Notes: generated from the letters alone by a model not told the origin. Shown: positions 1-13,475, numbered from the stretch's first letter. The stretch: 64,000 nt of DNA from Alphaproteobacteria bacterium (GCA_045565315.1 JBJLFO010000001.1:749856-813855); one strand, 5' to 3'. Made by a program: numbers and translations.

Positions 1-1063
1 CAACTTCAACCCCTAATCCAAGCCCTGGGTTTATCATAAGCTTTCCATCTCTAATGGACATTGGATTTAGAATGATATCATCAGCTAAATATTGAATACT
101 TACATTACTGAACCAATCTAATTTATTTACGACTTTTGAGATATGCCCAATACAAGCTGCACTGATCGATGAGTCACCTGCTTTACCACTAATATTCACG
201 TGCATATTATTATCTTTCATAAAATCAATAGCTCCGAGGAGATTTTTTATGCTACCAAATTTAATCAATTTTAAACTTGCTCCTTCGGCAGCATTCATAT
301 CTTTATGAATAGATAGGTCTTCCAAAGAGTGAATACCTTCATCAGCACTTAAAGCTGTGGACATCAACTCATTACATGCTTTCATTGTTTTAATATCGTA
401 ACCATTGACAGGTTGTTCCATGTAATCTAACCCAGCCTTATCAATCAATGAACAGAACAGTAGAGCACTCTTCCTATTATAGCCGGCATTACCATCAGCT
501 GTGAGTTGAACTTCATTTCCAAGCGCCACTCTTAGTCTTTCAGCTCTTTGAAGATCTTCTTTAATTGTCTTTGCTCCAACTTTGATTTTAAATGCTTTAA
601 ATCCCTCATCTCTTTTCTTCTTTGCTTCTTCAATTTCATTCTCTGATCCTGCAATTCGCCAAATTATTGGTAGGTCAGATCTTTTTATTTTTCCTATTAT
701 TTCAGAAAAGGATTTCTTTTGGGTTCTCGCAAATAGATCAATTAGAGCAGCTTCTATAGATGATTTTGCAGCAGCATTACCATAGATAGATGTTTGAACT
801 AAATTTGAAATAGATTCATATGATTGGATTTCAACTCCAACTAAAATCTCTTTCATATAATTAATTGCTTGTATCATTCCAACAGAACTTTCTCCTGTCA
901 TCGACAAGGAGGCGGCAGCTTCACCCCAACCAAAATCTCCGTCAGAACTTTTTACCCTGACCAAGATACTATTGCTTCTTTCAATAGTAATATTTGACAT
1001 ATGTATGGTTTGCCTGAGAGGTAATCCAATATTATAGATTTTTATGTCTTTAATTTTGAACAT
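1..1063 (-). CDS. Enolase-superfamily enzyme, muconate-lactonizing-enzyme (MLE) subgroup; partial, the last few C-terminal residues run off the left edge
   Basis: Absent from the ORF track because no stop lies in the window. My minus-strand translation from ATG 1063..1061 reads MFKIKDIKIYNIGLPLRQTIHMSNITIERSNSILVRVKSSDGDFGWGEAAASLSMTGES... Motifs present: FKAFKIKVG (KxK), TADGNAG, YMEQP, SADEG, SLKLIKFG. Paralog of 4488..5591. Confidence 0.75.
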   Translation of the reverse strand, partial: MFKIKDIKIYNIGLPLRQTIHMSNITIERSNSILVRVKSSDGDFGWGEAAASLSMTGESSVGMIQAINYMKEILVGVEIQSYESISNLVQTSIYGNAAAKSSIEAALIDLFARTQKKSFSEIIGKIKRSDLPIIWRIAGSENEIEEAKKKRDEGFKAFKIKVGAKTIKEDLQRAERLRVALGNEVQLTADGNAGYNRKSALLFCSLIDKAGLDYMEQPVNGYDIKTMKACNELMSTALSADEGIHSLEDLSIHKDMNAAEGASLKLIKFGSIKNLLGAIDFMKDNNMHVNISGKAGDSSISAACIGHISKVVNKLDWFSNVSIQYLADDIILNPMSIRDGKLMINPGLGLGVEV

Positions 1064-1071
1064 TAATTAAT

Positions 1072-2319
1072 CTAAAAATTAATTTTTAGCTTTCTAATAT
1101 TTACGAGCATCCAACTGAAGAATATTCCTTCAATAATTACAAGCATACCAAAAGCATAATTATAAGCAACTTTTGGATAAGAACCTAAATCGTTTGGACC
1201 CCAGATATCTAGAATGAACCCAATACTGAATTGAATTAAAAAGACCATTAAGAATGTTGAAACGGCAATTGTAGATATTGATCTTGCAGAATAGCCAGGG
1301 GGATATGTTTTATTGAGAATGGGATGAACTAAAACACCAATATTTCCAGTAAGACCCAGAATAGCCCACTGCCAATAACCGTCAGTATCGATATTTAGAG
1401 CAAAGGATATCTGAATAAGAAATAAAGCTAATAATCCTATCGCAAGATATTTTGCTCTGTTAAATCCACGTTTTGATAAATAATCAACAAGCGCACCATT
1501 CCCTAAAGTTCCAAAAGACATAGCGATTGCGACAATTAGTAAGCGAATTCCGATTTGTTCCTGTGTTAGGCCCGCGACATCTGACATCCAGCCATTAGCC
1601 CACAGACCTTGGATAGAAAAGAAACTTGCAAGTCCGAGGGCAGATACAGGAGCAAGAGTATAGAAATTCTTATTTTTAATAATTTGCATATAGACGTAAA
1701 AATTGGACTCTTTATCAGATTGAACTTCTATCTTCTTTTCTGGCATTAAAAATATGACTAAAATTAGAAGTAAAAAACAAATAATAAACCCTATAAGAAA
1801 GAGATCTCTCCAGTGATAGGTGGTCATGAAGATTTGAAGCGGCTTTGTGGATAGAATTGCACCAATCGATCCAGAAAATAAAATCATTCCATTAGCGGTT
1901 GCCCAAAACTGACTTGGGAACCAAATAGTAACAGATTTTAAAGCCGTAGTTAGACAAGATCCAATGCCAAATCCTAAGAAGGCTCTGCCAATAACTAGCA
2001 TTATGTAGCTATCAGCATATGAGGTCAGAAGACAGCCAGCTATTGCTAGTAGAATTTCCCAAATGAATATTTTCTTAGGGCCAAATTTATCTAATAGGAT
2101 TGCTAGCGGGATATATTGGATTGCTCCGGAAAAGAAGAAGATACTTGTTAAAAAGCCTATTTCTGTAGCATTTAGTGAGAATGTTGCTGATAACTCAGGT
2201 GCAAGAATTGCGTTTGTATTCCTCAGAAAGAAAGACAACATATATCCAACACCAAATGGAATGATAATTAGAAATATAAGTTTCATTTTATTGTAGACCA
2301 TAATTTTATTACATGGCAT
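1072..2319 (-). CDS. MFS-family transporter
   Basis: 415-aa ORF that is hydrophobic throughout, consistent with about 12 helices. It has an MFS-like TM2-TM3 loop (LLDKFGPKK). The start is ambiguous: M1, M7, or M12 at 2286. Confidence 0.8.
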   Translation of the reverse strand: MPCNKIMVYNKMKLIFLIIIPFGVGYMLSFFLRNTNAILAPELSATFSLNATEIGFLTSIFFFSGAIQYIPLAILLDKFGPKKIFIWEILLAIAGCLLTSYADSYIMLVIGRAFLGFGIGSCLTTALKSVTIWFPSQFWATANGMILFSGSIGAILSTKPLQIFMTTYHWRDLFLIGFIICFLLLILVIFLMPEKKIEVQSDKESNFYVYMQIIKNKNFYTLAPVSALGLASFFSIQGLWANGWMSDVAGLTQEQIGIRLLIVAIAMSFGTLGNGALVDYLSKRGFNRAKYLAIGLLALFLIQISFALNIDTDGYWQWAILGLTGNIGVLVHPILNKTYPPGYSARSISTIAVSTFLMVFLIQFSIGFILDIWGPNDLGSYPKVAYNYAFGMLVIIEGIFFSWMLVNIRKLKINF

Positions 2320-2367
2320 TATTTAGACCGACTGTCTATAGTTTTGTATGAAGTAATAGGGATTAAA

Positions 2368-3402
2368 ATGATGAATAAGAAAATTGCAGTTTTAGGGACT
2401 GGGGCAAATGGAAGTAGTGTGGCGGCTGATCTTACTAGTAACGGACTTGATGTAAAATTAATTGATCAGTGGCCAGAACATGTTGAAAAGATGCGTAAAG
2501 ATGGCCTCAAGATTGAGATGCCAAATAGAACATTAGAGACTAATGTTGATGCTTTTCATTTATGTGATGTAGCAACATTTTCAGATAAATTTGATATAGT
2601 GTTACTTTTTGTAAAAGCCTATGATACTGCATGGGCATGTGAGCTAATTAAACCTTACTTAAAGGATGATGGGATTTTGGTTGGGGTACAAAATTGTATG
2701 ATGGCTGAGTTAATCTCAGATATTGTTGGTGCAAATAGAACTATTGGCTGTGTTGCTGAATTATCCTCAGAGCTATTTAATCCTGGTGAAATTAAGAGAA
2801 ATACTCCACCCGAAGGTACTTGGTTTGGATTAGGAGCTCTTTCTCCTGAAATGGTGAACCGTATTCCAGAAGTAGAAGAAGTGCTTAAATTTTCTGGTAA
2901 GGTTGGAATAAGTGAACAAATTTTATCTGCTAAATTCATGAAGCTCGTGGTAAATGTGATGGGTATGGGCATGAAAGCTATTGGCGATATGATGCCTTCC
3001 GAGGCTTATGCTATAGAAGGCATGAAAGATGTGATGCTACAAGCTGGAGAAGAGGCATTAAAAGTAGGCGAAGGTCTTGGATATAAATTAGAGCCTATTA
3101 TGGGTCTCTCAAAAGAAGATATAGATAGTTCAAATAGAGTCCATGAGCTTCTTTTAGATACTGTATCAAAACATGTAGGTCCAACGGCCTTAAATACCGT
3201 ACTTCAAGATCATAGAAAGGGACGGCTTAGCGAGGTTGATCTTATAAATGGCTGGGTTTCCGAAGGAGGAAGAAAATTAGGAATAAGTACTCCGGTCAAT
3301 GATATGATCGTAGAAATGACAACTAAGATCCATGATGGGACTCTTCACCCATCACGAGAGCTTGTCATAGAAATCATTCAATCAATAGGGGAAAAGACCT
3401 GA
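2368..3402 (+). CDS. 2-dehydropantoate 2-reductase (ApbA/PanE) family oxidoreductase, substrate unknown
   Basis: N-terminal Rossmann motif IAVLGTGANGS; family-typical length and C-terminal helical domain. The track start at 2344 is TTG, so I prefer ATG at 2368. About 45% identical by eye to 56372..57403. Confidence 0.75.
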   Translation: MMNKKIAVLGTGANGSSVAADLTSNGLDVKLIDQWPEHVEKMRKDGLKIEMPNRTLETNVDAFHLCDVATFSDKFDIVLLFVKAYDTAWACELIKPYLKDDGILVGVQNCMMAELISDIVGANRTIGCVAELSSELFNPGEIKRNTPPEGTWFGLGALSPEMVNRIPEVEEVLKFSGKVGISEQILSAKFMKLVVNVMGMGMKAIGDMMPSEAYAIEGMKDVMLQAGEEALKVGEGLGYKLEPIMGLSKEDIDSSNRVHELLLDTVSKHVGPTALNTVLQDHRKGRLSEVDLINGWVSEGGRKLGISTPVNDMIVEMTTKIHDGTLHPSRELVIEIIQSIGEKT

Positions 3403-3403
3403 T

Positions 3404-4474
3404 ATGCCATCAAAAGAATTAGGTTTGGCGGTAATTGGATCTGGAAGAATTGGATCACTGCGAGCCATTCTATCATCTGGCCATCCAGCAATAAAGTTCT
3501 TGGGTGTTTCTGATATAAACATAAATAATGCTAAAAAGCTTGCTCAAAGATGTAATGCAAATAAATATACGGATAATAATTATGAGCTTATTTCCGATCC
3601 AAATGTAACAACAGTAATTGTATCAACCAGCGAGCACGATCATTATGACGCAGTAATGCATGCATTGGAATTAGGTAAACCTGTTTTGGTAGAAAAACCA
3701 ATCGCCTTAAATATAGATGAGGCAGATAAAATGATAAAAAAATCTAAAGAAGCAAATACTCTTTTTAGAGTTGGTTATGCACAAAGATTCAAAAGAAGAT
3801 ATTTATCAGGTAAGGACCAATTAGTAGAGGGGCGTATAGGTAATATTTTATCAATTTCAGCTCGTGCATGTAACACAAGAGCACAGGGTATTGAAATTCT
3901 AAAAAGATCTCCGACCGCAACACCTGTTGTAGATGTTTTGACTTATTGGGTTGATGTAGCATGTTGGTATCTGGAAGGAATTGAACCAGTTGAAGTTACC
4001 GCAAGAGGAACAGGAACAGTATTTAGGGAGGCAGGTTTTGATGTTAATGACACAACTTGGAGTCTTATTAAATTTAGTAATGGGGCAATTGTAAATTTAG
4101 GAGTTTTTTTTGCTCTTCCATCTCATTCACCTCAATTAGGGATGGGTGTAAGGTTTGAAGTTTATGGTGATGATGGTGCACTTATTTTAAATGATGATCA
4201 TACGGATGAGCTTTTAGTCACCAATAATGGTATTCCCCATGCATATATTCCAGATCTTGAATTTAATACAGCATTCTTATCGAGTTCTACGCCCGGTAAT
4301 TGGCATCTTGGAGATTATTGGGGTCCAGTTGCCGATGAGACAAGAGTATGGCTCGACCATCTATCAATGGGACGTCCATGCCCAATTGCATCTCCTGAGG
4401 ATGCAAGAAAAAATCTATTGATTACATTAGCAATGGAAGAGTCAGCAAAAAAAAATAGCACAATTAATTTATAA
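3404..4474 (+). CDS. Gfo/Idh/MocA-family NAD(P)-dependent oxidoreductase
   Basis: LAVIGSGRIGS Rossmann motif and the EKP motif (PVLVEKPIAL). It starts 1 nt after the upstream stop. Confidence 0.8.
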   Translation: MPSKELGLAVIGSGRIGSLRAILSSGHPAIKFLGVSDININNAKKLAQRCNANKYTDNNYELISDPNVTTVIVSTSEHDHYDAVMHALELGKPVLVEKPIALNIDEADKMIKKSKEANTLFRVGYAQRFKRRYLSGKDQLVEGRIGNILSISARACNTRAQGIEILKRSPTATPVVDVLTYWVDVACWYLEGIEPVEVTARGTGTVFREAGFDVNDTTWSLIKFSNGAIVNLGVFFALPSHSPQLGMGVRFEVYGDDGALILNDDHTDELLVTNNGIPHAYIPDLEFNTAFLSSSTPGNWHLGDYWGPVADETRVWLDHLSMGRPCPIASPEDARKNLLITLAMEESAKKNSTINL

Positions 4475-4487
4475 TTTTGAAACACAA

Positions 4488-5591
4488 ATGTTTAAAATAA
4501 AAAAAATAGAGACTTTTATAATCCAAGTTCCACTGCATGTACCTTTAAAAATGTCTGGGGTCTCCATTGAGCACTGCGATAATATGGTCGTAAAAGTTTC
4601 AGCTGATAATGGAATGGTTGGTTGGGGAGAGGCACCTTATGCCCCCTTTTTTAATGGCGAGATTACAAGAGGTATGATTGCGGTAGTTGATTTTATGAAA
4701 GAGCGTCTAATTGATGTTGAAGTGAAAAACATAGATGAAATAAAAGATATTTTAGCAGTGACTATTTATGGTAATTCTGGGGCCAAATCAGCAATCGATA
4801 TGGCATTACATGATCTTTCTGGGAAGATATTAAACAAACCTCTGTATGATATACTTGGAGGATCGAAAAGAGAAAAAGTTCCAATGATTTGGTTAGTGGC
4901 TGGTGGAGAAGATGAATTCAAGTTACTCAAAGAAAGAATAGATCTTGGTTTTGTCTCTTTTAAGTTAAAGGTCGGAACAAATGAAGTAACAAAAGATATT
5001 GAAAGGGCTTACGAAGCTCAAAAGATTCTTGATCACAACTACACCCTTTCTGCTGATGCCAATCAGGGTTTTAATAGAGAAGATGCATTAACTTTTTCAT
5101 CAAAAACTGGTGATATTGGACTAGATTTTTTTGAACAGCCGGTAACTGGAAAAGATATTGATACAATGGTGGAATGCAACGCAAGATCGTATGCACCTAT
5201 TGGTGTGGATGAAGGAATCCACAATATTGATGACATAAAGATACATCATGATCGTAAGGCAGCAAATGGCGGTAGTCTCAAAATGATCAAATTTGGAGGC
5301 GTCGCGCAATTATTTGAAGCTGCAAATCTGATGCATTCATATGACATGCATATAAATCTTGCTGGAAAAGCTGCAAATACATCAATTGGAAGTGCGGCGA
5401 TAGCCCACTTCACCAGAGCACTTCCATCTCTTGATTGGGATGCGAGTTTATCTAGTCAATATTTGTCAGATGATATAGCAGAAAATCCAGTCAAAGTTAT
5501 TGAAGGTCACATAATCACTCCGGACGACGGTCCTGGCCTCGGAATAAATATTGATGAAGATAAATTAAACCAATACAGTATTAAATTGTAA
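4488..5591 (+). CDS. Enolase-superfamily enzyme, MLE subgroup (racemase/epimerase/cycloisomerase type), substrate unknown
   Basis: SFKLKVG (KxK); metal-ligand contexts SADANQG, FFEQP, VDEG; second catalytic Lys context SLKMIKFGG. Confidence 0.85.
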   Translation: MFKIKKIETFIIQVPLHVPLKMSGVSIEHCDNMVVKVSADNGMVGWGEAPYAPFFNGEITRGMIAVVDFMKERLIDVEVKNIDEIKDILAVTIYGNSGAKSAIDMALHDLSGKILNKPLYDILGGSKREKVPMIWLVAGGEDEFKLLKERIDLGFVSFKLKVGTNEVTKDIERAYEAQKILDHNYTLSADANQGFNREDALTFSSKTGDIGLDFFEQPVTGKDIDTMVECNARSYAPIGVDEGIHNIDDIKIHHDRKAANGGSLKMIKFGGVAQLFEAANLMHSYDMHINLAGKAANTSIGSAAIAHFTRALPSLDWDASLSSQYLSDDIAENPVKVIEGHIITPDDGPGLGINIDEDKLNQYSIKL

Positions 5592-5609
5592 ATTTATAAT
5601 CTGGAAAAA

Positions 5610-6500
5610 ATGGCTCAAATAAAAATTATTGATGACTCAACTAAGGGTACACTATTCACCTTTGGTTTCATTCTGACAGTGCCATTTATTGAGGCATCTG
5701 TAAAACTTCTCGGCGATGCCATGGCGCCTCCGCAGGTTTCTTTTACCAGATTCATGCTACATTTTGTAGTATTGAGCGTTTATATATATTTGTATCTTCC
5801 AAAAGAGGAGTGGATCGCCAAACCTAGCTGGCCGTTATTAGTGAGAGGCATTCTTGCAAGTCTTGGGACATTATGTGTCTATGCCGGATTATCAGTCCTC
5901 CCACTTGTGGATGCTGTTGCTATTTTTTTCATACAACCCATCATTATAACTGCTTTGTCATCTATACTATTGAGAGAAAAAGTCGGCATTTATAGGTGGA
6001 TTGCTGTTTTGGCTGGAATGGGTGGAGCTCTGCTTGTGATCGGACCAAATTTTGATGATGTTGGATGGGGCGCAGTATTTCCAGCCCTAGCGGCATTATT
6101 TCACGGTCTCTCAGCATTGATGGCAAGAAAATGGGCAAATGCAGCAAGACTTCCCGTGTTTCAATATTATACGGCAATTACAGCAGTTATCATGATGACA
6201 GCTATATTCATTTTTGGTGGTATTACAGGATATGATCGCGTTGCACTTGTAATGCCAGACACATTCCAATGGTTTTTACTGGCAGTTATAGCTTTTGGAT
6301 CAATTATAACAAATTTACTACTAACGCAGGCATTCAGGATAACCCCATCATCAATTATTGCACCATTTCTATATTTACAAATCATTGGATCAACAATTAT
6401 GGGATATTATATTTTTAATCAACTACCGAGTTCGCAAACTATTTTTGGGGCATGTCTTGTCATATTAGCAGGTCTTCTTATTTGGTGGAGGGAAAAATAA
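5610..6500 (+). CDS. EamA/DMT-family transporter
   Basis: 296-aa ORF with about 10 hydrophobic helices arranged as two EamA-like halves. Confidence 0.8.
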   Translation: MAQIKIIDDSTKGTLFTFGFILTVPFIEASVKLLGDAMAPPQVSFTRFMLHFVVLSVYIYLYLPKEEWIAKPSWPLLVRGILASLGTLCVYAGLSVLPLVDAVAIFFIQPIIITALSSILLREKVGIYRWIAVLAGMGGALLVIGPNFDDVGWGAVFPALAALFHGLSALMARKWANAARLPVFQYYTAITAVIMMTAIFIFGGITGYDRVALVMPDTFQWFLLAVIAFGSIITNLLLTQAFRITPSSIIAPFLYLQIIGSTIMGYYIFNQLPSSQTIFGACLVILAGLLIWWREK

Positions 6501-6514
6501 ATTAATTCAAGATA

Positions 6515-7069
6515 TTAAATTGTACCATGTGATGAAATAAACAATTCACAATTAGTATCAGTTATATTACTCCAAGCATGATTAGCACTAATATTAACAA
6601 CAGTATCGCCTTGCTCTAAATCAACCTCACCTTCATCCAGTATCAATCTAATAGACCCGGTCATAACATACACATAATCTAGACTATCTTTCTTATGCAT
6701 GAATGGGTGGGCACCTTCATTTGGTTGAAATAATTCATCCGAGTTAATTGATTGATAGAATTTCTTGATATTTTCATTAGTAATTTCTCCAAAATTCTTA
6801 TCTGGTGGTATTTTGATGAATCTACAGATTGATCCAGATTTTGGGGGTATTAGGCTATGAGCAAACCCATCACTCTCCTTTTCAGCTTTTTCTCCAAAGT
6901 TTGCTGGAGATTGAAGGGTCGCCCAGATTTTAGTTGAGGAGTATCCTGGTCGAGCGGGATCTTTAATAATATCTTTTGCTATCTCATCACTGATGAATTT
7001 TATTTCACCATTGGGGTATTGGCCTATAACAATTCTTCTTTTATTTGATGTCGAAGAATTATTCATCAT
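6515..7069 (-). CDS. Cupin-domain protein, unknown function (tandem paralog 1)
   Basis: C-terminal cupin-like block DYVYVMTGSIRLILDEGEVDLEQGDTVVNISANHAWSN. Homologous to 7059..7604 (RRIVIG/RRVVVG, KIWAT/EIWTF, PPKSG/PPQNG). The track start at 7078 is TTG; ATG ATG lies at 7069/7066. Confidence 0.6.
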   Translation of the reverse strand: MMNNSSTSNKRRIVIGQYPNGEIKFISDEIAKDIIKDPARPGYSSTKIWATLQSPANFGEKAEKESDGFAHSLIPPKSGSICRFIKIPPDKNFGEITNENIKKFYQSINSDELFQPNEGAHPFMHKKDSLDYVYVMTGSIRLILDEGEVDLEQGDTVVNISANHAWSNITDTNCELFISSHGTI

Positions 7070-7604
7070 CTCCTCCAATCATTATAAATAACATTTCATT
7101 TGCACCATGAGAATTATCCCAGGAGTGAAAATGACCAAGTTGGACAATTATATCACCTTGATTCATAATTAATTCAGTATCGGGAAGCACATGCGTACGA
7201 TTTCCCTTGGTAACAACTCCATAATCTACAGTTCTAGTTCGATGCATATTCCAATGTTTATCACTCTTCATCTTTTCTGATAAGCCGGTCCTATTCATTG
7301 ACTCAAAAAATTTATCTGCTTCTTTTTGGTCTATTTTTTTATTATCTTCTTTTTTTGATTCTATAACCCTAAAATGGGCCCCATTTTGAGGGGGTGAGTG
7401 ACTAAGAGGCCTATCAGCTCCATCATTCATATTTTTTGAATTAACAGGGCAATTATCAAAAGTCCAAATTTCATTGAAATATATTGTTGAGCCTCCACCT
7501 CTATTGAATTGATATGGATTATCACTATCAGAAATTATGGCCGAATTACCATTTTTGTTTGTACCAACAACTACTCTCCTTGGTGGTTTTGGTGATAAGG
7601 ACAT
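7059..7604 (-). CDS. Cupin-domain protein, unknown function (tandem paralog 2)
   Basis: Cupin-like block VDYGVVTKGNRTHVLPDTELIMNQGDIIVQLGHFHSWDN. Its start overlaps the cyclase stop as TAATG. Confidence 0.6.
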   Translation of the reverse strand: MSLSPKPPRRVVVGTNKNGNSAIISDSDNPYQFNRGGGSTIYFNEIWTFDNCPVNSKNMNDGADRPLSHSPPQNGAHFRVIESKKEDNKKIDQKEADKFFESMNRTGLSEKMKSDKHWNMHRTRTVDYGVVTKGNRTHVLPDTELIMNQGDIIVQLGHFHSWDNSHGANEMLFIMIGGDDE

Positions 7605-8290
7605 TAAATATCAAAAACGGCAACAGCTCTTACCGGCGATCCAGTGCCACCTCTCCAAGCCATAGGTAAACAAATAAATGTAAATGTACCTTTTCCAAGA
7701 ATTTTCTCAAGATTGCATAAGCTTTCTAGGTGCGTAATATTAACTTCATGGCATACTTTATGAACAAGAGCATTCACTTTTCCAATAGGACCAGGGCGCA
7801 TCGAGTCGATTCCAAAATGAACCACCCCTTGTTCTGCAAGCCATTTTGTGGCATCTACATTTACACCGGGATTATCTGTCGAATAAGCAGGTGTTGGAAA
7901 GGTCCTTTCATGATGACCTGTACACAATAAAACAGTACCATTTTTCGGAATATTTTGCCCCGACTTTTTTACAGCATCTTCTAAATCTGACGGCGTAATT
8001 TCAGCTTTTGGTTCAATATGTCTAAGATCAATACAAATACCTTTTACTATACAATTTTCTAGTGGGTATTCATTAATTGGAATACCATCAACGCTAAAAT
8101 GACGTGGGGCATCAATATGCGTTCCACCATGATCAGACATTGAAAAATAATGAACAGAATTCCCTTGTATATTTCCTGAGTCGGCAAATGCTTCCTTGTG
8201 ACTTTTCCATACGCCATGGATTACAGGTGGTTGTCCGGGGTATTGCGGAGTACGATGATATAGTTCACGGCTTAAATCTATTATTTCCAT
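7604..8290 (-). CDS. Cyclase-family metal-dependent hydrolase (kynurenine formamidase / isatin hydrolase-like)
   Basis: Family signature HGGTHIDAPRHF; about 228 aa, typical for the family. Confidence 0.8.
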   Translation of the reverse strand: MEIIDLSRELYHRTPQYPGQPPVIHGVWKSHKEAFADSGNIQGNSVHYFSMSDHGGTHIDAPRHFSVDGIPINEYPLENCIVKGICIDLRHIEPKAEITPSDLEDAVKKSGQNIPKNGTVLLCTGHHERTFPTPAYSTDNPGVNVDATKWLAEQGVVHFGIDSMRPGPIGKVNALVHKVCHEVNITHLESLCNLEKILGKGTFTFICLPMAWRGGTGSPVRAVAVFDI

Positions 8291-8299
8291 ATTAACCTC

Positions 8300-9697
8300 T
8301 CAAAAATTTATAGCTTTATTATACATTATATTACGTTCTATGTTATTGGCAATTTGAAGAATTATATTTTCGCACCATCTTTTCCCAACTATTTGCATAG
8401 ATGTTGGCATATTATTTTTATCTTTCCCATTTGGTAAAACGATCGCAGGAAGTCCTGTGACGTTATAAGGTGCGAAAAATTGTCTATGTAAATTTTTGGT
8501 ATAATCATAATTTTGGTCATTTATCATTACCATCAAGTCGCTGATCCGAGGGGCTGTAAAAGGTACGGATGGGGATATTAAGGCATCAAATTTTTCAAGT
8601 TTTAGTTCTAATAACCTAGTCATTTTAACTTTATCTTCCATTGCCCTAAGATAGTCATCTATAGAAATATTTATTGACCAATCCATTCTTTTTTTTACAT
8701 CAGGATCAAAACTATTTGGATCTTCTTCATATTGTTTTCTGTGAACCCTCGTGAATTCTGGTCCTGCAATATCATAAAAAAGGTTTTGTATTAGTTTTAC
8801 TTCCTCAAACTTAATTTCTGAAACTTCCGCACCAAGGTCTCTCAGAATATTTATTACATTTATATAGGACTCTTGAACGGCCCTATCTATTTCTTGATTT
8901 TCATATAAATCAGGGCACATAGCAATTTTAAAACCTTTAATGGGTTCATCTAAATGGTTAAGGTTTGTGCGTTCATGTTGAATTGATCTTGTATCTAACG
9001 AGTTATATCCTTCCAATACACGATAGGTAATAGCAGTTGATATTACAGACTCACCCATAGGCCCAAGATGGTCGATGGATGGTGAATTTGGAAATACACC
9101 ATCTAAACTTATTGCTCCATAGGTTGGCTTAAAACCGACTATTCCACATAATGAAGCTGGGGTTCTAATTGATCCGCCGGTATCACTTCCAAGTGCAATG
9201 GGAACAAGACTCGCTGCGACTGCGGATGCTGAACCACCGCTCGAACCGCCAGCTATTTTATTTTTATCGTGGGGGTTTTTTGTAGAACCATAAAAATTAT
9301 TGATAGTAGTTGAAGCTGCAGCATACTGGTGAGTATTAGTTTTACCAATTAAAACAGCCCCTGCATCTCTCATTTTTTTAATACAAAACGCATCAGAATC
9401 TGGGAAGAAATTATCATATTTCTCTGATCCATTTGTCGTTCGAACACCTGCTGTATTTATTATATCTTTTACGCCATAGGGTATTCCATGTAATGGGCCC
9501 CTATAATTACCATTTGAAATTTCTTTTTCAGCTATTTTTGCCTCTGAAATTGCATCTTTTTCTAATACTGTTATGAAAGCGTTTAAATCGGTATTATAGT
9601 TGTGGATTCTGTTTAGGTAATATTCAGTTAATGTCACAGGGGACATATCACCTACTCTGATTAAATTCGTTAATTTTTTGAAGTTTATACTTTCCAT
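8300..9697 (-). CDS. Amidase-signature (AS) family amidase
   Basis: GGSSGGSASAVAASL amidase signature with upstream GKTN. The first 20 residues of the track ORF look non-coding, so I prefer ATG at 9697 (MESINFKKL...). Confidence 0.85.
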   Translation of the reverse strand: MESINFKKLTNLIRVGDMSPVTLTEYYLNRIHNYNTDLNAFITVLEKDAISEAKIAEKEISNGNYRGPLHGIPYGVKDIINTAGVRTTNGSEKYDNFFPDSDAFCIKKMRDAGAVLIGKTNTHQYAAASTTINNFYGSTKNPHDKNKIAGGSSGGSASAVAASLVPIALGSDTGGSIRTPASLCGIVGFKPTYGAISLDGVFPNSPSIDHLGPMGESVISTAITYRVLEGYNSLDTRSIQHERTNLNHLDEPIKGFKIAMCPDLYENQEIDRAVQESYINVINILRDLGAEVSEIKFEEVKLIQNLFYDIAGPEFTRVHRKQYEEDPNSFDPDVKKRMDWSINISIDDYLRAMEDKVKMTRLLELKLEKFDALISPSVPFTAPRISDLMVMINDQNYDYTKNLHRQFFAPYNVTGLPAIVLPNGKDKNNMPTSMQIVGKRWCENIILQIANNIERNIMYNKAINF

Positions 9698-9827
9698 AAA
9701 AATTTGTTTTTTTGAAAATAAATTATATACATTTATGTCATTTAAATATATAAACACAAATTATCTCATGTATAAACATCTAATTATTTTGCTTTATGGT
9801 GTTTTGATGATTTGAATACAACAAAGA

Positions 9828-9845
9828 TATCGAAAAAATTCGATA
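9828..9845. repeat. Perfect 7-bp inverted repeat tatcgaa-aaaa-ttcgata in the rplS upstream region
   Basis: Read directly from the sequence, about 45 nt upstream of the rplS ATG. Confidence 0.3.
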
Positions 9846-9887
9846 GAACATAAATGAAATCTAATTCATCTACTTAAGAGCAGAACA

Positions 9888-10313
9888 ATGAATATTATTC
9901 AAGAACTAGAAAACGAGCAACTTCAAAAATTACAAGAAAATAAATCTATACCAGATTTTAGCCCAGGCGATACTGTGAAAGTCAACGTGAAGATTAGTGA
10001 AGGTACAAGAGAGAGAGTCCAAGCTTATGAGGGGGTCGTTATCGGTAGATCTGGTGGCGGAATAAATGAAAACTTTACTGTTAGAAAAATATCTTACGGT
10101 GAAGGTGTTGAAAGAGTTTTCCCGGTCTACTCCCCAACCATAGAGTCTATTACTATATTGAAGCGTGGTAAAGTCAGGAGAGCTAAACTATATTATCTTC
10201 GAGAAAGAAGAGGTAAGTCTGCCCGAATAGCTGAAAAAATAGATGTAAATCGTAATAAAGCAAAAGATTTATCAGCAAAAAAAGACGAATCGTCAAAAGA
10301 TGAGTCTAAATAA
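9888..10313 (+). CDS. rplS: 50S ribosomal protein L19
   Basis: [31 protein letters not shown]... is typical L19. There is a short Lys/Ser/Asp-rich C-terminal tail. Confidence 0.95.
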
Positions 10314-10346: not shown

Positions 10347-11384
10347 TTGAATTACCAACTCTTAAAAACATTATGTGAGACTCCATCTGTGGCCGGGAGA
10401 GAGTCAAGAATAAGTAGTTTCATTCAAGAGAATGTAAAAGATTTTTTTGATGAAATAGAAATTGATCCTTTAGGTTCAATAATTTGTAAGAAATTTTCAA
10501 AAAAGAAAGCAAAGCAAAAAATACTTCTTCTTTGTCACATGGATGAGATTGGTTTCCTTGTTAGCCATATTAATAGTAAGGGCTTTTTATTTGTTGATCC
10601 TGTGGGCGGTTTTGATCCAAGAAATTTATTTTCAAGAAGAGTTCTAGTTTGTACTGAAAATGGCGATTATAAGGCTGTCATGAATCCACCAGGAAAACCT
10701 GTTCATACTCAAAGTGCGATGGATAGAAAAAAAATACCTGAGCCAAATGAGTTTTTCATAGACATGGGTATTGGAGAAAAAGCAAAAGATAAAGTAAAAA
10801 TTGGTGATTTTGTTGTAATGGATGAGCCATTTCTTGAACTATCAGATAAGGTAGTGTCCAAAGCACTTGATAATAGAATTGCTTGCTGGTTAGGTATGGA
10901 ACTTGCCAAATATATTCATGAGAATAAGCTAGAGTTAGATAATGATTTATATATTGTCTTTACTTCTCAAGAAGAAGTTGGGCTGAGGGGTGCAAAGACT
11001 GCATCCTTTACTGTTAATCCTGATATAGCAATTGGAATTGATACTACACTTGCATGTGATACACCTGGTGTTGCAGAACAAGACTGGATAACAGCACAGG
11101 GAAAAGGTTTTGGTCTGCACATAAAAGATGGTTCATTTATTTCTGACGCTGAACTTGTGAAGGAATTTGTAGAACTTGCAGAAAAAAACAAAATTGAATA
11201 CCAAAGAACTATCTTGAGCCGAGGTGGGCAGGATGGTGCTGCTGGGCAACAATCTGGATCAGGTGCCAAAGCAATTGGTATTGTTGTTGGGACAAGATAT
11301 ATTCATACTGTTACTGAGATGATTGAAAAAAATGATTTAGAGAATGCTTTGAGTATTCTTCAAAAATATATTGAAAATAAATAA
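10347..11384 (+). CDS. M42-family aminopeptidase (FrvX/glutamyl aminopeptidase-like)
   Basis: LLCHMDEIGFLV metal-ligand motif and SQEEVGLRGA. TTG start at 10347. Confidence 0.85.
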   Translation: MNYQLLKTLCETPSVAGRESRISSFIQENVKDFFDEIEIDPLGSIICKKFSKKKAKQKILLLCHMDEIGFLVSHINSKGFLFVDPVGGFDPRNLFSRRVLVCTENGDYKAVMNPPGKPVHTQSAMDRKKIPEPNEFFIDMGIGEKAKDKVKIGDFVVMDEPFLELSDKVVSKALDNRIACWLGMELAKYIHENKLELDNDLYIVFTSQEEVGLRGAKTASFTVNPDIAIGIDTTLACDTPGVAEQDWITAQGKGFGLHIKDGSFISDAELVKEFVELAEKNKIEYQRTILSRGGQDGAAGQQSGSGAKAIGIVVGTRYIHTVTEMIEKNDLENALSILQKYIENK

Positions 11385-11452: not shown

Positions 11453-12859
11453 ATGAGTAATTCAAGAACAATTTACGATAAAATTTGGGATGACCATCTT
11501 GTAAACGAAAGTGAAGACGGATCATCACTCATTTATATTGATAGACATTTGATTCACGAAGTCACCTCTCCTCAAGCCTTTGAAGGCCTGAGAGTCTCAA
11601 ATAGGAAAGTTAGGTGCCCAGAGAAAACATTGGCAGTTGTAGACCATAATGTTCCAACGACTGACAGGAAGAATGGAATTGCCGATGAAGAATCAAGAAT
11701 ACAAGTTGAAGCTCTTGCAAAAAACTGTAAGGAATTTGGAATAGAATATTTTAATGAACTAGATATTCGACAAGGTATAGTCCATGTCATAGGACCAGAG
11801 CAGGGTTTTACTCTACCCGGTACGACAATAATGTGTGGAGATAGTCATACCTCGACCCATGGAGCATTCGGCGCACTGGCGATGGGCATTGGAACATCAG
11901 AGGTTGAACATATTTTAGCAACTCAAACATTAATTCAAAAAAAAGCTAAGAACTTCAGAATTAACGTTAACGGGTCTACACCAAAAGATATTACAGCAAA
12001 AGATATTATTTTATCTATAATTGGTGAAATTGGTACAGGCGGAGGAACAGGATCTGTAATAGAATATGCAGGTAAAGCTATATCTGACCTATCTATGGAG
12101 GGTAGAATGACTGTGTGTAATATGTCTATTGAAGGTGGTGCAAGAGCCGGTTTAATAGGGCCTGACGAAAAGACATTTGCTTACATGAAAGATAAACCCA
12201 GATCACCAAAGGGAGATGATTTCGCCAGAGCTATTGATTACTGGGACTCTCTAAACACAGATAAAGAGGCCTATTTTGATAGAGAAATAAATCTTGACGC
12301 AGGATCATTACCACCTGTTGTTACATGGGGGACAAGTCCGGAGGATGTTGTATCAATTAATGGTGAGGTTCCTGATCCAGAACAAATGGATGAAAATAGA
12401 AGAGACTCAAAAAAGAGTGCTCTCGAATATATGGGATTGAAGCCTGGAACAAAGATTAAAGATATTAACTTAGATATAGTTTTCATAGGATCATGTACAA
12501 ATGGAAGAATTGAAGATCTAAGACAAGTTGCAAAAGTTGTTGAAGGACATCATGTAAATGAAAATCTAAATGCAATGATAGTTCCTGGATCTGGTCTGGT
12601 TAAAGAGCAAGCTATAAGTGAAGGTCTAGATAAAATATTTATGGCCGCAGGCTTCGAATGGAGGGAGCCAGGATGCTCAATGTGTTTAGCTATGAACCCA
12701 GATAAATTATTGCCCGGACAAAGATGTGCATCTACTTCAAACCGAAATTTTGAGGGTAGACAAGGGTTTAGAGGTAGAACTCATTTAGTTTCACCTGCTA
12801 TGGCCGCCGCCGCCGCCATTGCTGGCCATTTTGTAGATATAAGAGAATTCAATAAGTAG
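11453..12859 (+). CDS. leuC: 3-isopropylmalate dehydratase large subunit
   Basis: Aconitase-family motifs [27 protein letters not shown]; leuD follows. Confidence 0.97.
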
Positions 12860-12869
12860 GAATACTATA

Positions 12870-13475
12870 ATGGAAAAATTTACAAACTTGACTGGTGTAG
12901 CAGCACCTTTACCAGAGATAAATGTTGATACTGATAAAATCATACCAAAACAATATTTAAAAACTATCAAGCGGACAGGTCTAGGAAAGGCTCTTTTCTC
13001 GGAGATGAGATATAATGATGATGGAACAGATAACGAAGAATTTGTCCTTAATAAGGATAAATATAAGAATGCAAAAATTTTAGTTGCTGGTGATAATTTC
13101 GGCTGTGGTTCAAGTAGGGAACACGCTCCTTGGGCTCTTTTAGACTTTGGAATAAAAGTTGTAATATCAACGTCATTTGCGGATATATTTTTCGGTAATT
13201 GTTTCAAAAATGGAATGTTACCAATTGTCCTAGATCAAAAAGAAGTCAACCTTCTTATGTCAGAAGCAGAAAGAGGATCTAATGCGACATTGAGCGTTGA
13301 TCTTGAAAACCAAGAAATTACTACATCAGATGGAAATATTATTAAATTTAAAATAGATAGTTTTTTAAAACATTGTTTATTGAATGGTCTTGATGATATT
13401 GCTCTTACTCTTGAAAAAGATAAAAATATTGGAAGTTATGAAGCAAAAATCAAGAATGATAGACCATGGGTTTAG
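12870..13475 (+). CDS. leuD: 3-isopropylmalate dehydratase small subunit
   Basis: [17 protein letters not shown] swivel-domain motif; located between leuC and leuB. Confidence 0.95.

What the first reader, a model, noticed from the sequence alone, without database searches (positions are those of the whole stretch)
1..9757. Regulator-less catabolic island of unassignable function, next to rplS where trmD would be expected
Ten genes lie in three tightly packed units. Unit one (minus strand) is MFS plus an MLE-type enolase that runs off the window. Unit two (plus strand) is KPR-like reductase, Gfo/Idh/MocA dehydrogenase, a second MLE-type enolase and an EamA transporter, with gaps of 1-18 nt. 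Unit three (minus strand) is amidase, cyclase-family hydrolase, cupin and cupin. I cannot map this combination to any described pathway. The mix of two enolase-superfamily epimerase/cycloisomerase-type enzymes, two NAD(P) oxidoreductases, an amidase and a metal-dependent cyclase-family amide hydrolase suggests uptake and breakdown of an N-containing organic acid such as an amide, lactam or N-acyl compound. No transcription factor is present. The island abuts rplS, which in many bacteria closes the rpsP-rimM-trmD-rplS operon, so this may be an insertion or rearrangement point.
Basis: partly seen in the sequence, partly recalled or inferred. Interest (0 to 1): 0.55.

Follow-up and report, generated by a model that had tools for sequence, protein, structure and literature searches.

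The report
Conserved PS1-clade catabolic gene block
The ten genes are real, but they are an old, vertically inherited set of small catabolic operons of unknown substrate in an abundant marine alphaproteobacterium (PS1 clade), not a recently inserted island.

Summary
All ten genes are present at the stated coordinates, with the stated families, and none is a transcription factor. The organism is a PS1-clade marine alphaproteobacterium. The block runs past the window start (GST, Ldh_2 dehydrogenase, TPP enzyme). It shows no sign of being a mobile island: GC matches the flanks, and there are no tRNAs, integrases or flanking repeats. The same block sits next to rplS-M42-leuCDB-asd in every PS1 lineage sampled, down to 48-51% amidase identity. 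trmD lies directly upstream of rplS in 53 of 77 other alphaproteobacterial species. It is missing from every PS1 locus, so the break is ancient. Ten other species also lack trmD nearby.

No described pathway matches, and every enzyme scores below its family cut-off. Outside PS1 the parts separate:
- The two cupins always travel as a pair, mostly with TRAP transporters and GntR regulators. Natural fusions show they form a split bicupin of the 3ES1/StrC family.
- The cyclase-family hydrolase is 70-79% identical across phyla and there sits next to an SDR.

Best reading: two or three separate, constitutively expressed modules for N-containing organic acids. Interest is modest.

The parts
1..1063 (-). 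MLE-type enolase 1. It is 364 aa in full, and its last ~10 codons lie beyond the window start. It is the second gene of the MFS-enolase-GST operon.
   Evidence: Pfam MR_MLE_N/C. The full-length gene is seen in L005 11257-12351. The KxK, D/E/D and Lys catalytic positions are invariant in alignment A4. It scores 142.9 bits on TIGR02534 against a cut-off of 334.95.
1072..2319 (-). MFS transporter, the first gene of unit 1
   Evidence: Pfam MFS_1 1.3e-33. It lies below every NCBIfam cut-off. It is 74-88% identical across the PS1 lineages compared.
2368..3402 (+). Ketopantoate-reductase-like NAD(P) oxidoreductase. The ORF could start at TTG 2344. It is divergent from the MFS gene with only 48 nt between them.
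   Evidence: Pfam ApbA + ApbA_C. TIGR00745 scores 130 against a cut-off of 141.35. Gene callers give 344 aa.
3404..4474 (+). Gfo/Idh/MocA dehydrogenase
   Evidence: Pfam GFO_IDH_MocA plus C-terminal domains. The inositol 2-dehydrogenase model scores 135 against a cut-off of 355.
4488..5591 (+). MLE-type enolase 2, a paralogue of enolase 1 (about 42% identical)
   Evidence: Pfam. The best PDB matches are 2p88 and muconate cycloisomerases at 1e-39 to 1e-42. Catalytic residues are invariant, as is a subfamily-specific 'N-L-A-G-K' lysine.
5610..6500 (+). EamA/DMT transporter, the last gene of unit 2. It lies inside a recent inter-lineage recombination tract (about 5000-6500).
   Evidence: Pfam EamA.
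6515..7066 (-). cupA, the C-terminal-type half of a split bicupin
   Evidence: Pfam Cupin_2. It always lies directly downstream of cupB. It is 38% identical to the C-terminal half of the fused 390-aa protein in L092.
7059..7604 (-). cupB, the N-terminal-type half of the split bicupin (no Pfam hit)
   Evidence: A profile of its family hits PDB 3ES1 (1.7e-12) and 8X0U, which is StrC (3.5e-10). The AF2 model has pLDDT 93.5. Foldseek gives TM 0.71 to 3ES1 and StrC. H121, D127 and H160 are conserved across the family.
7604..8290 (-). Cyclase-family (PF04199) metal-dependent amidohydrolase
   Evidence: Pfam 1.1e-35. The HGGTHIDAPRH motif is visible in the sequence. The arylformamidase model TIGR03035 scores 77.9 against a cut-off of 223. 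PDB matches are the 8F9X phosphotriesterase, KynB and isatin hydrolase. Homologues 70-79% identical occur in hundreds of clusters across phyla.
8300..9757 (-). Amidase-signature enzyme, the first gene of unit 3. The true start is possibly ATG 9697, giving 465 aa.
   Evidence: Pfam Amidase 5.7e-107. AtzE and GatA models score 317-327 bits, below their cut-offs. The GGSSGGS signature is present. Other lineages have 465-470 aa versions.
9758..9887 (.). A 130-nt AT-rich divergent intergenic region between the amidase operon and rplS. This is where the trmD-rplS link is broken.
   Evidence: Sequence. No trmD or rpsP occurs in the window or in any PS1 locus.
9888..10313 (+). rplS (bL19), followed by an M42 peptidase, leuC, leuD, leuB, asd and sdhCDAB

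Best explanation
This is part of a core, vertically inherited catabolic neighbourhood of PS1-clade marine alphaproteobacteria. It consists of two or three separate small operons that have no dedicated regulator.

Module A is amidase-cyclase-cupB-cupA. The genes are translationally coupled, so they are read as one operon. The inferred mechanism has three parts:
- A binuclear-metal cyclase-family hydrolase cleaves one C-N bond (formyl, acyl or lactam).
- A Ser-cisSer-Lys amidase cleaves a second amide.
- A heteromeric split bicupin with a His-Asp-His site in each half carries out a metal- or acid/base-dependent step on the carbon skeleton. Candidates are isomerisation, dehydration or cyclisation as in its only characterised relative StrC, or alternatively ring cleavage.

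Module B is the two divergent operons MFS-enolase1-GST and KPR-Gfo-enolase2-EamA, probably together with the Ldh_2 dehydrogenase upstream. The inferred mechanism is uptake of a pair of related hydroxy- or amino-carboxylates. Two paralogous MLE-type enolases then abstract the alpha-proton (epimerisation, cycloisomerisation or beta-elimination), and NAD(P)-dependent oxidoreductases interconvert keto and hydroxy groups.

Shown here: gene content, intact catalytic motifs, conservation across PS1, native composition, the modular distribution outside PS1, the cupin fusion, and the ancient loss of the trmD-rplS link. Inferred: the substrates, the order of steps, and whether modules A and B serve one compound.
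For: - Gene families and motifs.
- The organism is PS1 clade and very abundant. Its rplS occurs in 275 blocks of the collection.
- Identical synteny next to rplS occurs in all PS1 lineages found.
- Between the window and L012, block proteins are 67-93% identical and housekeeping neighbours 81-90%. This points to purifying selection.
- In the deep lineages L140, L145 and L148, the amidase is 48-51% identical, the cyclase 80-82% and LeuC 84%.
- There are no island hallmarks.
- The cupB-to-cupA pair is adjacent in every locus where the sequence reaches downstream of cupB.
- A natural cupB-cupA fusion exists in the same order as the genes. Many two-domain proteins of 340-395 aa appear among 2,357 related representative clusters.
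- Fold and profile searches link the cupins to 3ES1 and StrC. StrC is reported as an aromatase in fungal alkyl-salicylaldehyde pathways (PMC13463297).
- Outside PS1 the cupin pair sits with TRAP, MFS or TTT transporters, GntR regulators and assorted hydrolases, never with the amidase, cyclase or enolases.
- Close cyclase homologues in a Bradyrhizobium genome and a MAG labelled Nitrospinota sit beside an SDR.
- A 52%-identical homologue of enolase 2 sits with PrpD, an SDR and a non-orthologous Gfo.
Against: - No substrate is identified, and no enzyme reaches a curated family cut-off.
- Persistent adjacency within PS1 could mean that all units serve one pathway. The flanking housekeeping synteny is equally conserved, so adjacency alone cannot decide.
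- The cupins' chemistry is extrapolated from a fungal relative only 21-24% identical.
- Operon structure is inferred from spacing only. Promoter-like and terminator-like sites are not above chance.
- Only about 60 non-PS1 cupin loci and three non-PS1 cyclase contexts were examined.
Confidence: 0.55

Rival explanations
1. This is one dedicated pathway. All ten or more genes act in sequence on a single N-containing organic acid. The steps would be uptake, hydrolytic C-N cleavage, epimerisation and redox conversion to a central metabolite.
For: All units are contiguous and conserved together across deep PS1 lineages. Two transporters plus hydrolases, epimerase-type enzymes and oxidoreductases form a plausible full set.
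Against: No pair of units recurs together outside PS1 in any of the loci examined. Housekeeping flanks are conserved just as well, so synteny is not specific evidence. Three separate transcription directions and two or three transporters suggest more than one substrate.
Confidence: 0.22
2. Module A is a ring-cleavage route for an N-heteroaromatic or aminoaromatic carboxylate. The logic resembles the nicotinate/picolinate or kynurenine pathways, recalled from my own knowledge. The bicupin would act as an Fe(II) dioxygenase opening the ring to an N-formyl amide. The cyclase-family enzyme would deformylate it, and the amidase would release ammonia. The GST would isomerise the cis-dicarboxylate, and the MLE-type enolases would process muconate-like products.
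For: A 2-His-1-Asp arrangement occupies the canonical cupin ligand positions in both halves. The cyclase is related to kynurenine formamidase and isatin hydrolase. The best NCBIfam model for both enolases is muconate cycloisomerase. The GST hits maleylacetoacetate isomerase weakly. In other lineages the cupin pair sits beside an Abhydrolase_3 or Amidohydro_2 hydrolase.
Against: The only characterised relative of the cupins, StrC, is a non-oxidative aromatase. All family scores are far below cut-offs. Many cupin-pair loci carry only a transporter and a regulator, with no hydrolase. No hydroxylase that would prepare a ring for cleavage is present.
Confidence: 0.13
3. This is an N-acyl-amino-acid racemase route that converts D-amino acids or N-acyl amino acids, as in the Bacillus cereus N-succinyl-Arg/Lys racemase or the marine DgcA systems (recalled from my own knowledge). 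The amidase or cyclase would act as the deacylase.
For: The best PDB hit of enolase 2 is 2p88, at 3.1e-42. From my own recollection 2p88 is an N-succinyl Arg/Lys racemase; the PDB entry names it only as an MR/MLE family protein. The DgcA and L-Ala-D/L-Glu epimerase models hit weakly. Two amide hydrolases are adjacent.
Against: No acyltransferase is present in the block. The scores are generic for the MLE subgroup. The hydrolases lie in a different operon from the enolases.
Confidence: 0.08
4. This is a recently acquired genomic island inserted between trmD and rplS.
For: trmD is the usual upstream neighbour of rplS. The cupin and cyclase families are shared across distant taxa.
Against: The block sits in the same place in every PS1 lineage sampled. 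GC equals that of the flanks. There are no tRNAs, integrases or repeats. trmD is not on the far side of the block within about 19 kb.
Confidence: 0.02

Closest known systems
3ES1/StrC-type cupins. 3ES1 is a Novosphingobium protein of unknown function. StrC, VirC and PaltE are fungal cupins of alkyl-salicylaldehyde pathways.
   Same: They share the cupin barrel with a roughly 100-residue N-terminal extension that starts with an 'RRVVTG' strand. They also share the His, Asp and His positions. Profile E-values are 1.7e-12 and 3.5e-10, and Foldseek TM is about 0.71.
   Different: Identity is only 21-24%. The proteins here are bacterial and come as an obligate adjacent pair or fusion. They are linked to carboxylate transporters and hydrolases rather than to a PKS and SDRs. 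No function is known for any bacterial member.
Kynurenine formamidase (KynB), isatin hydrolase and Ruegeria C-PTE, all in the cyclase family PF04199
   Same: The HxGTHxDxPxH metal motif and the overall family are shared. 8F9X is identified as C-PTE in PMC12135135.
   Different: TIGR03035 scores 77.9 bits against a cut-off of 223. No kynA or kynU is nearby. This orthologue group is unusually conserved, at 70-79% identity across phyla, and has no assigned function.
AtzE, GatA and allophanate-hydrolase-type amidase-signature enzymes
   Same: The amidase signature fold and the GGSSGGS motif are shared. Scores are 317-327 bits.
   Different: It is below all equivalog cut-offs. No small partner subunit (AtzG or GatC) lies adjacent. 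It is the fastest-evolving gene of the block.
MLE subgroup of the enolase superfamily: muconate cycloisomerase, N-succinyl-amino-acid racemase, dipeptide epimerase, cis-3-hydroxy-L-proline dehydratase
   Same: The KxK motif, the D/E/D metal ligands and the beta-6 lysine are invariant. PDB hits reach 1e-33 to 1e-42.
   Different: It is below every family cut-off. A subfamily-specific invariant 'N-L-A-G-K' lysine is present. The closest C-terminal matches are uncharacterised structural-genomics entries 3I6T and 3I6E.
The nic and pic pyridine-ring pathways, which combine a dioxygenase, a deformylase, an amidase and an isomerase. This comparison comes from my own knowledge and is an analogy only.
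   Same: They share the logic of an oxygenase-type enzyme combined with two successive C-N hydrolases and a cis-trans isomerase candidate (the GST).
   Different: None of the enzymes is homologous to NicX, NicD, NicF or NicE as far as I recall. This was not tested here.

Membership tests
Genomic (mobile) island | Atypical composition, a flanking tRNA or repeats, an integrase or transposase, and patchy presence among close relatives | tested here: not met
   GC is 0.358 against 0.36 in the flank. There are no tRNAs and no significant repeats. No mobility gene is present. The block is present in all PS1 lineages sampled.
rpsP-rimM-trmD-rplS operon | trmD immediately upstream of rplS | tested here: not met
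   tblastn with E. coli TrmD and RpsP finds nothing in the window or in any PS1 locus. trmD is adjacent in 53 of 77 other alphaproteobacterial loci.
Arylformamidase / kynurenine formamidase (TIGR03035) | Score at or above 223 bits | tested here: not met
   77.9 bits
Cyclase family PF04199 | Pfam gathering score and the HxGTHxDxPxH metal motif | tested here: met
   123.4 bits against a cut-off of 23.1. The HGGTHIDAPRH motif is in the translation.
AtzE family amidohydrolase (TIGR02715 / NF006631) | Score at or above 425.75 / 461 bits | tested here: not met
   319.6 and 326.8 bits
Amidase signature family PF01425 | Pfam score and the Gly/Ser-rich signature | tested here: met
   358.9 bits. AGGSSGGSASAVAAS is in the translation.
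Muconate/chloromuconate cycloisomerase (TIGR02534) | Score at or above 334.95 bits | tested here: not met
   194.1 bits (enolase 2) and 142.9 bits (enolase 1)
MLE subgroup of the enolase superfamily | KxK at beta-2, Asp/Glu/Asp metal ligands, Lys at beta-6 | tested here: met
   K159 is nearly invariant. K161, D190, E216, D241 and K265 are invariant in 21 sequences that include both paralogues.
cis-3-hydroxy-L-proline dehydratase (NF043002) | Score at or above 500 bits | tested here: not met
   126.9 and 77 bits
2-dehydropantoate 2-reductase (TIGR00745) | Score at or above 141.35 bits | tested here: not met
   130 bits. Only the ApbA domain architecture is met.
Inositol 2-dehydrogenase IolG (TIGR04380) | Score at or above 355 bits | tested here: not met
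   135.2 bits
3ES1/StrC-like cupins | Sequence-profile and fold similarity, with conserved His/Asp/His at the cupin motif positions | tested here: met
3ES1/StrC-like cupins | Aromatase or cyclase activity on polyketide-type carbonyl intermediates | not testable with these tools
   This activity is known only for the fungal StrC (PMC13463297).
Bicupin (two cupin domains acting as one enzyme) | The two domains are physically linked or obligately co-encoded | tested here: met
   The pair is adjacent in every locus where the sequence reaches downstream of cupB. A fused 390-aa homologue has its domains in the gene order. Many two-domain representatives exist. Physical association itself was not tested.

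The most novel reading that the evidence does not exclude
The amidase-cyclase-cupB-cupA operon encodes a so far undescribed route by which a globally abundant, streamlined marine clade mineralises an N-containing dissolved organic compound. At its centre would be a new heteromeric (split) bicupin enzyme class. The bacterial members of this class are otherwise wired directly to TRAP transporters.
Probability: 0.25. Interest if true: 0.6.

Novelty: new member of a known kind. Interest (0 to 1): 0.3.

Why it matters
PS1-clade bacteria are abundant in surface oceans. The rplS of this strain alone occurs in 275 blocks of the contig collection. Their substrate range is poorly known. A core, regulator-less block with two amide hydrolases, two uncharacterised enolases and a split bicupin marks compounds that these cells consume constitutively. 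Identifying those compounds would add to the map of marine dissolved organic nitrogen and carbon turnover. It would also assign function to three uncharacterised enzyme groups:
- the bacterial 3ES1/StrC-type cupin pair;
- the very highly conserved cyclase orthologue group;
- the 'NLAGK' enolase subfamily.

The rplS/trmD aspect is only a lineage marker. It is an old operon break, not an active insertion site.

Tried and rejected
- Island signals gave nothing: tRNAs, Rfam, repeats, GC.
- Promoter and terminator scans were not above shuffled expectation.
- Literature on PS1 genomes gave nothing on this block.
- PDB-code searches for 8X0U and 3ES1 found no paper. StrC was identified only through the fold-search description and one citing paper.
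- The riboflavin/lumichrome pathway surfaced in a text search. It was rejected because it needs a P450, a xanthine oxidase and a Rieske oxygenase, none of which is present here.
- Apparent links through shared TPP, PrpD and Gfo neighbours in other genomes were rejected. Those proteins are only 26-29% identical to each other or to the PS1 proteins, so they are not orthologues.
- The first AF2 model, built from a shallow alignment, was unusable at pLDDT 38. It was replaced by a deeper alignment.
- A 'DxD' dipeptide-epimerase-like motif in enolase 2 could not be verified against reference epimerases, so no weight is placed on it.
- Ureide (allantoin) and sulfolactate readings of the Ldh_2 and TPP pair were considered. 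All scores lie below cut-offs, so they remain unsupported.

Full report
**What is there.** ORF listing and translation and Pfam confirm the ten genes.
- Unit 1, minus strand: MFS 1072-2319, then an MR/MLE enolase 1-1063 whose last ~10 codons lie off the window.
- Unit 2, plus strand: ApbA/KPR-like reductase 2368-3402, Gfo/Idh/MocA dehydrogenase 3404-4474, a second MR/MLE enolase 4488-5591, and EamA 5610-6500.
- Unit 3, minus strand: amidase 8300-9757, cyclase-family hydrolase 7604-8290, a 181-aa protein without a Pfam hit 7059-7604, and a Cupin_2 protein 6515-7066.

Spacing within units is 1-18 nt or a small overlap. Units 1 and 2 are divergent with 48 nt between them. Units 2 and 3 converge with 14 nt between the stop codons. 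rplS starts 130 nt from the amidase start, on the opposite strand. No protein has a DNA-binding domain.

**Organism and extent.** Exact-sequence look-ups name the source 'PS1 clade bacterium' / Rhodobiaceae MAGs. The rplS protein occurs in 275 blocks of the contig collection, so this is an abundant marine organism. Contigs that extend beyond the window show that the gene neighbourhood continues. After enolase 1 come a GST, a divergent Ldh_2-family dehydrogenase, a TPP enzyme, a 461-aa protein, an alpha/beta hydrolase and two efflux-type MFS genes. None of these is a regulator either. The region therefore has no sharp outer edge.

**Not an island.**
- GC is 0.358 in 1-10000, 0.360 in the next 5 kb, and 0.32-0.36 in the rest of the window.
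- There are no tRNA genes, no Rfam matches and no meaningful direct or inverted repeats.
- The same gene order, from asd-leuBDC-M42-rplS through amidase-cyclase-cupB-cupA, EamA-enolase2-Gfo-KPR and MFS-enolase1-GST to Ldh_2 and TPP, is found in a series of increasingly distant PS1 lineages. These are L012/L121 (cupB 86-87%, amidase 70-71%), L122-L124, L129/L130, L096 (cupB 78%), L097/L098 (cupB 72%, enolase 2 about 60%), and L140/L145/L148 (amidase 48-51%, cyclase 80-82%, LeuC 84%).
- Between the window and L012 the block proteins are 67-93% identical and the housekeeping neighbours 81-90%. The block genes are therefore maintained by selection.

**The trmD question.** A genome scan with RplS returned 80 alphaproteobacterial loci. 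A tblastn with E. coli TrmD gave the following for the 77 informative loci other than L012:
- trmD within 450 nt upstream of rplS in 53 loci;
- trmD 0.7-3.3 kb upstream in 14 loci;
- no trmD within 5-10 kb in 10 loci.

No trmD or rpsP is present in the 64-kb window, in the roughly 9 kb beyond its start, or in any other PS1 locus. The expectation was correct for the class. However, the break predates the PS1 radiation, and similar breaks exist in about one species in eight. The location of trmD in PS1 was not determined.

**Function of individual enzymes.** Every enzyme is a clear member of its superfamily but falls below the curated cut-off of every named family.
- Amidase: 320-327 bits on AtzE and GatA models.
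- Cyclase: 78 bits on arylformamidase, against a cut-off of 223.
- Enolases: 194 and 143 bits on muconate cycloisomerase, against a cut-off of 335.
- KPR-like reductase: 130 bits, against a cut-off of 141.
- Gfo: 135 bits on IolG, against a cut-off of 355.

PDB sequence searches agree. The catalytic apparatus is intact in each:
- the amidase signature and the HxGTHxDxPxH motif;
- in both enolase paralogues and 19 homologues, the KxK motif, the Asp/Glu/Asp ligands and the beta-6 lysine, plus an invariant subfamily-specific 'N-L-A-G-K' lysine.

**The cupins.** The 181-aa protein (cupB) belongs to a narrow orthologue group. Only 49 proteins were found by the word-indexed search, all at least 57% identical. 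A profile of them hits PDB 3ES1 and 8X0U. With a deeper alignment the AF2 model is confident, at pLDDT 93.5. Foldseek puts 3ES1 and 8X0U/8X0V first, with TM about 0.71. 8X0U/8X0V is 'cupin-like fold protein StrC from Stachybotrys'. StrC is described as an aromatase in fungal alkyl-salicylaldehyde biosynthesis (PMC13463297).

At the canonical cupin ligand positions the family keeps His121, Asp127 and His160. The second motif-1 histidine is replaced by Thr. cupA shows the same His/Asp/His pattern (sequences).

cupA and cupB are paralogues, 24-31% identical in BLASTP pairs. cupB lies directly upstream of cupA in every locus where the sequence reaches downstream of cupB. A 390-aa protein in L092 is a natural fusion. 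Its N-terminal half matches cupB at about 33% and its C-terminal half matches the local cupA at 55%. The domain order is the same as the gene order. An exhaustive profile search finds 2,357 related clusters, many of them two-domain proteins of 340-395 aa. I therefore read cupB and cupA as a split bicupin.

**Are the units one pathway?** Outside PS1 the parts separate.
- In about 60 metagenomic and genomic loci the cupin pair is accompanied mainly by TRAP transporters (12 or more loci), MFS or TTT transporters and GntR regulators. Less often it sits with an Abhydrolase_3, an S15 hydrolase, an Amidohydro_2, a GNAT or a CMD-like protein. It is never accompanied by the amidase, the cyclase or the enolases.
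- The cyclase is strikingly conserved, at 70-79% identity in hundreds of clusters. These include a Bradyrhizobium genome and a MAG labelled Nitrospinota. In those two it lies next to an SDR, not next to an amidase or cupins. A third context was uninformative.
- A 52%-identical homologue of enolase 2 lies with a PrpD-family protein, an SDR and a non-orthologous Gfo.

The ten-gene combination is therefore PS1-specific. The four genes of unit 3 are translationally coupled and almost certainly act together. Units 1 and 2 share a 48-nt divergent spacer and carry paralogous enolases, so they plausibly act on related substrates. Nothing beyond adjacency ties unit 3 to units 1 and 2, and the housekeeping flanks are equally syntenic.

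**Regulators.** Homologous cupin modules in other bacteria carry a GntR/FCD regulator. Its absence in PS1 fits genome streamlining rather than an unusual control mechanism. This is an inference.

**Mechanistic reading and rivals.** My preferred reading has confidence 0.55.
- Module A would hydrolyse two C-N bonds, using the metallo-hydrolase and then the Ser-cisSer-Lys amidase. It would remodel the carbon skeleton with a His-Asp-His bicupin.
- Module B would import hydroxy- or amino-carboxylates and process them by alpha-proton abstraction and NAD(P)-dependent redox steps.

The rivals are:
- a single pathway (0.22);
- a nicotinate/kynurenine-like ring-cleavage route with the bicupin as a dioxygenase (0.13);
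- an N-acyl-amino-acid racemase route (0.08);
- a recent island (0.02).

None can be settled without biochemistry.

**Side observation.** A conspecific contig (L126) is 96-99% identical in nucleotides across the block. The exception is roughly 5000-6500, covering the 3' end of enolase 2 and EamA, where identity drops to 69-82%. In contrast, contigs of another lineage (L122, L124) are 66-79% identical elsewhere but 91-98% identical in exactly that segment. The EamA protein matrix shows two allele classes that cut across lineages. The window strain thus carries an EamA allele recently exchanged between PS1 lineages.

**Verdict.** The 'island/insertion' interpretation is not. The function remains unassigned but is better framed. 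This is an uncharacterised, clade-conserved catabolic neighbourhood built from known enzyme families. It is of moderate interest, mainly because of the organism's abundance and the uncharacterised split bicupin.

Noticed in passing
window 5000-6500 (3' end of enolase 2 plus EamA): This is a recombination tract. Conspecific contig L126 is 96-99% identical in nucleotides elsewhere but 69-82% here. The divergent lineage L122/L124 is 66-79% identical elsewhere but 91-98% here. Two EamA allele classes cut across PS1 lineages.
   Followed up: partly
window 7604-8290: The cyclase-family protein is unusually conserved. Homologues 70-79% identical occur in hundreds of 90%-identity clusters, including a Bradyrhizobium genome and a MAG labelled Nitrospinota. 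In those two it sits beside an SDR. No function is assigned to this orthologue group.
   Followed up: partly
L092 17992-19164; also L092 10001-11143: This 390-aa protein is a natural cupB-cupA fusion. The same locus also carries tandem cupB duplicates that are 75% identical.
   Followed up: yes
window 8300-9757: The amidase evolves much faster than its operon partners. In deep PS1 lineages it is 48-51% identical while the cyclase is 80-82%.
   Followed up: no
window 9697-9757, 7066-7078, 2344-2368: Three start codons are ambiguous. The amidase is 485 aa from GTG 9757 but 465-470 aa in other lineages. cupA is 187 or 183 aa. The KPR-like gene is 352 or 344 aa.
   Followed up: no
window 4488-5591 and 1-1063: Both enolase paralogues and all homologues aligned share an invariant 'N-[LIM]-[AS]-G-K' lysine at the position where MLE and dipeptide epimerases have 'G-x-M-x-E' (recalled from memory). 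Enolase 2 orthologues also have a 'D-W-D' motif, where enolase 1 has 'D-W-F/Y'.
   Followed up: no
window 10347-11384: An M42 peptidase gene lies between rplS and leuC in all PS1 loci. No M42 homologue was detected there in any of the other alphaproteobacterial loci, and in many of them leuC follows rplS within a few hundred bases.
   Followed up: no
L096 18307-18840: A DUF924 gene is inserted between the GST and Ldh_2 genes in one PS1 lineage only.
   Followed up: no
L016, L022, L024, L033, L044, L052, L061, L064, L065, L072, L076, L080, L085, L088: In 14 other alphaproteobacterial species, 0.7-3.3 kb of extra sequence separates trmD from rplS. In 10 more, trmD is absent within 5-10 kb. This junction has therefore been broken repeatedly in the class.
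   Followed up: partly
window 2655-2972 (-), 10967-11269 (-), 12791-13207 (-): These ORFs of 100-138 aa lie antisense within the KPR-like, M42 and leuC/leuD genes. They are probably spurious.
   Followed up: no
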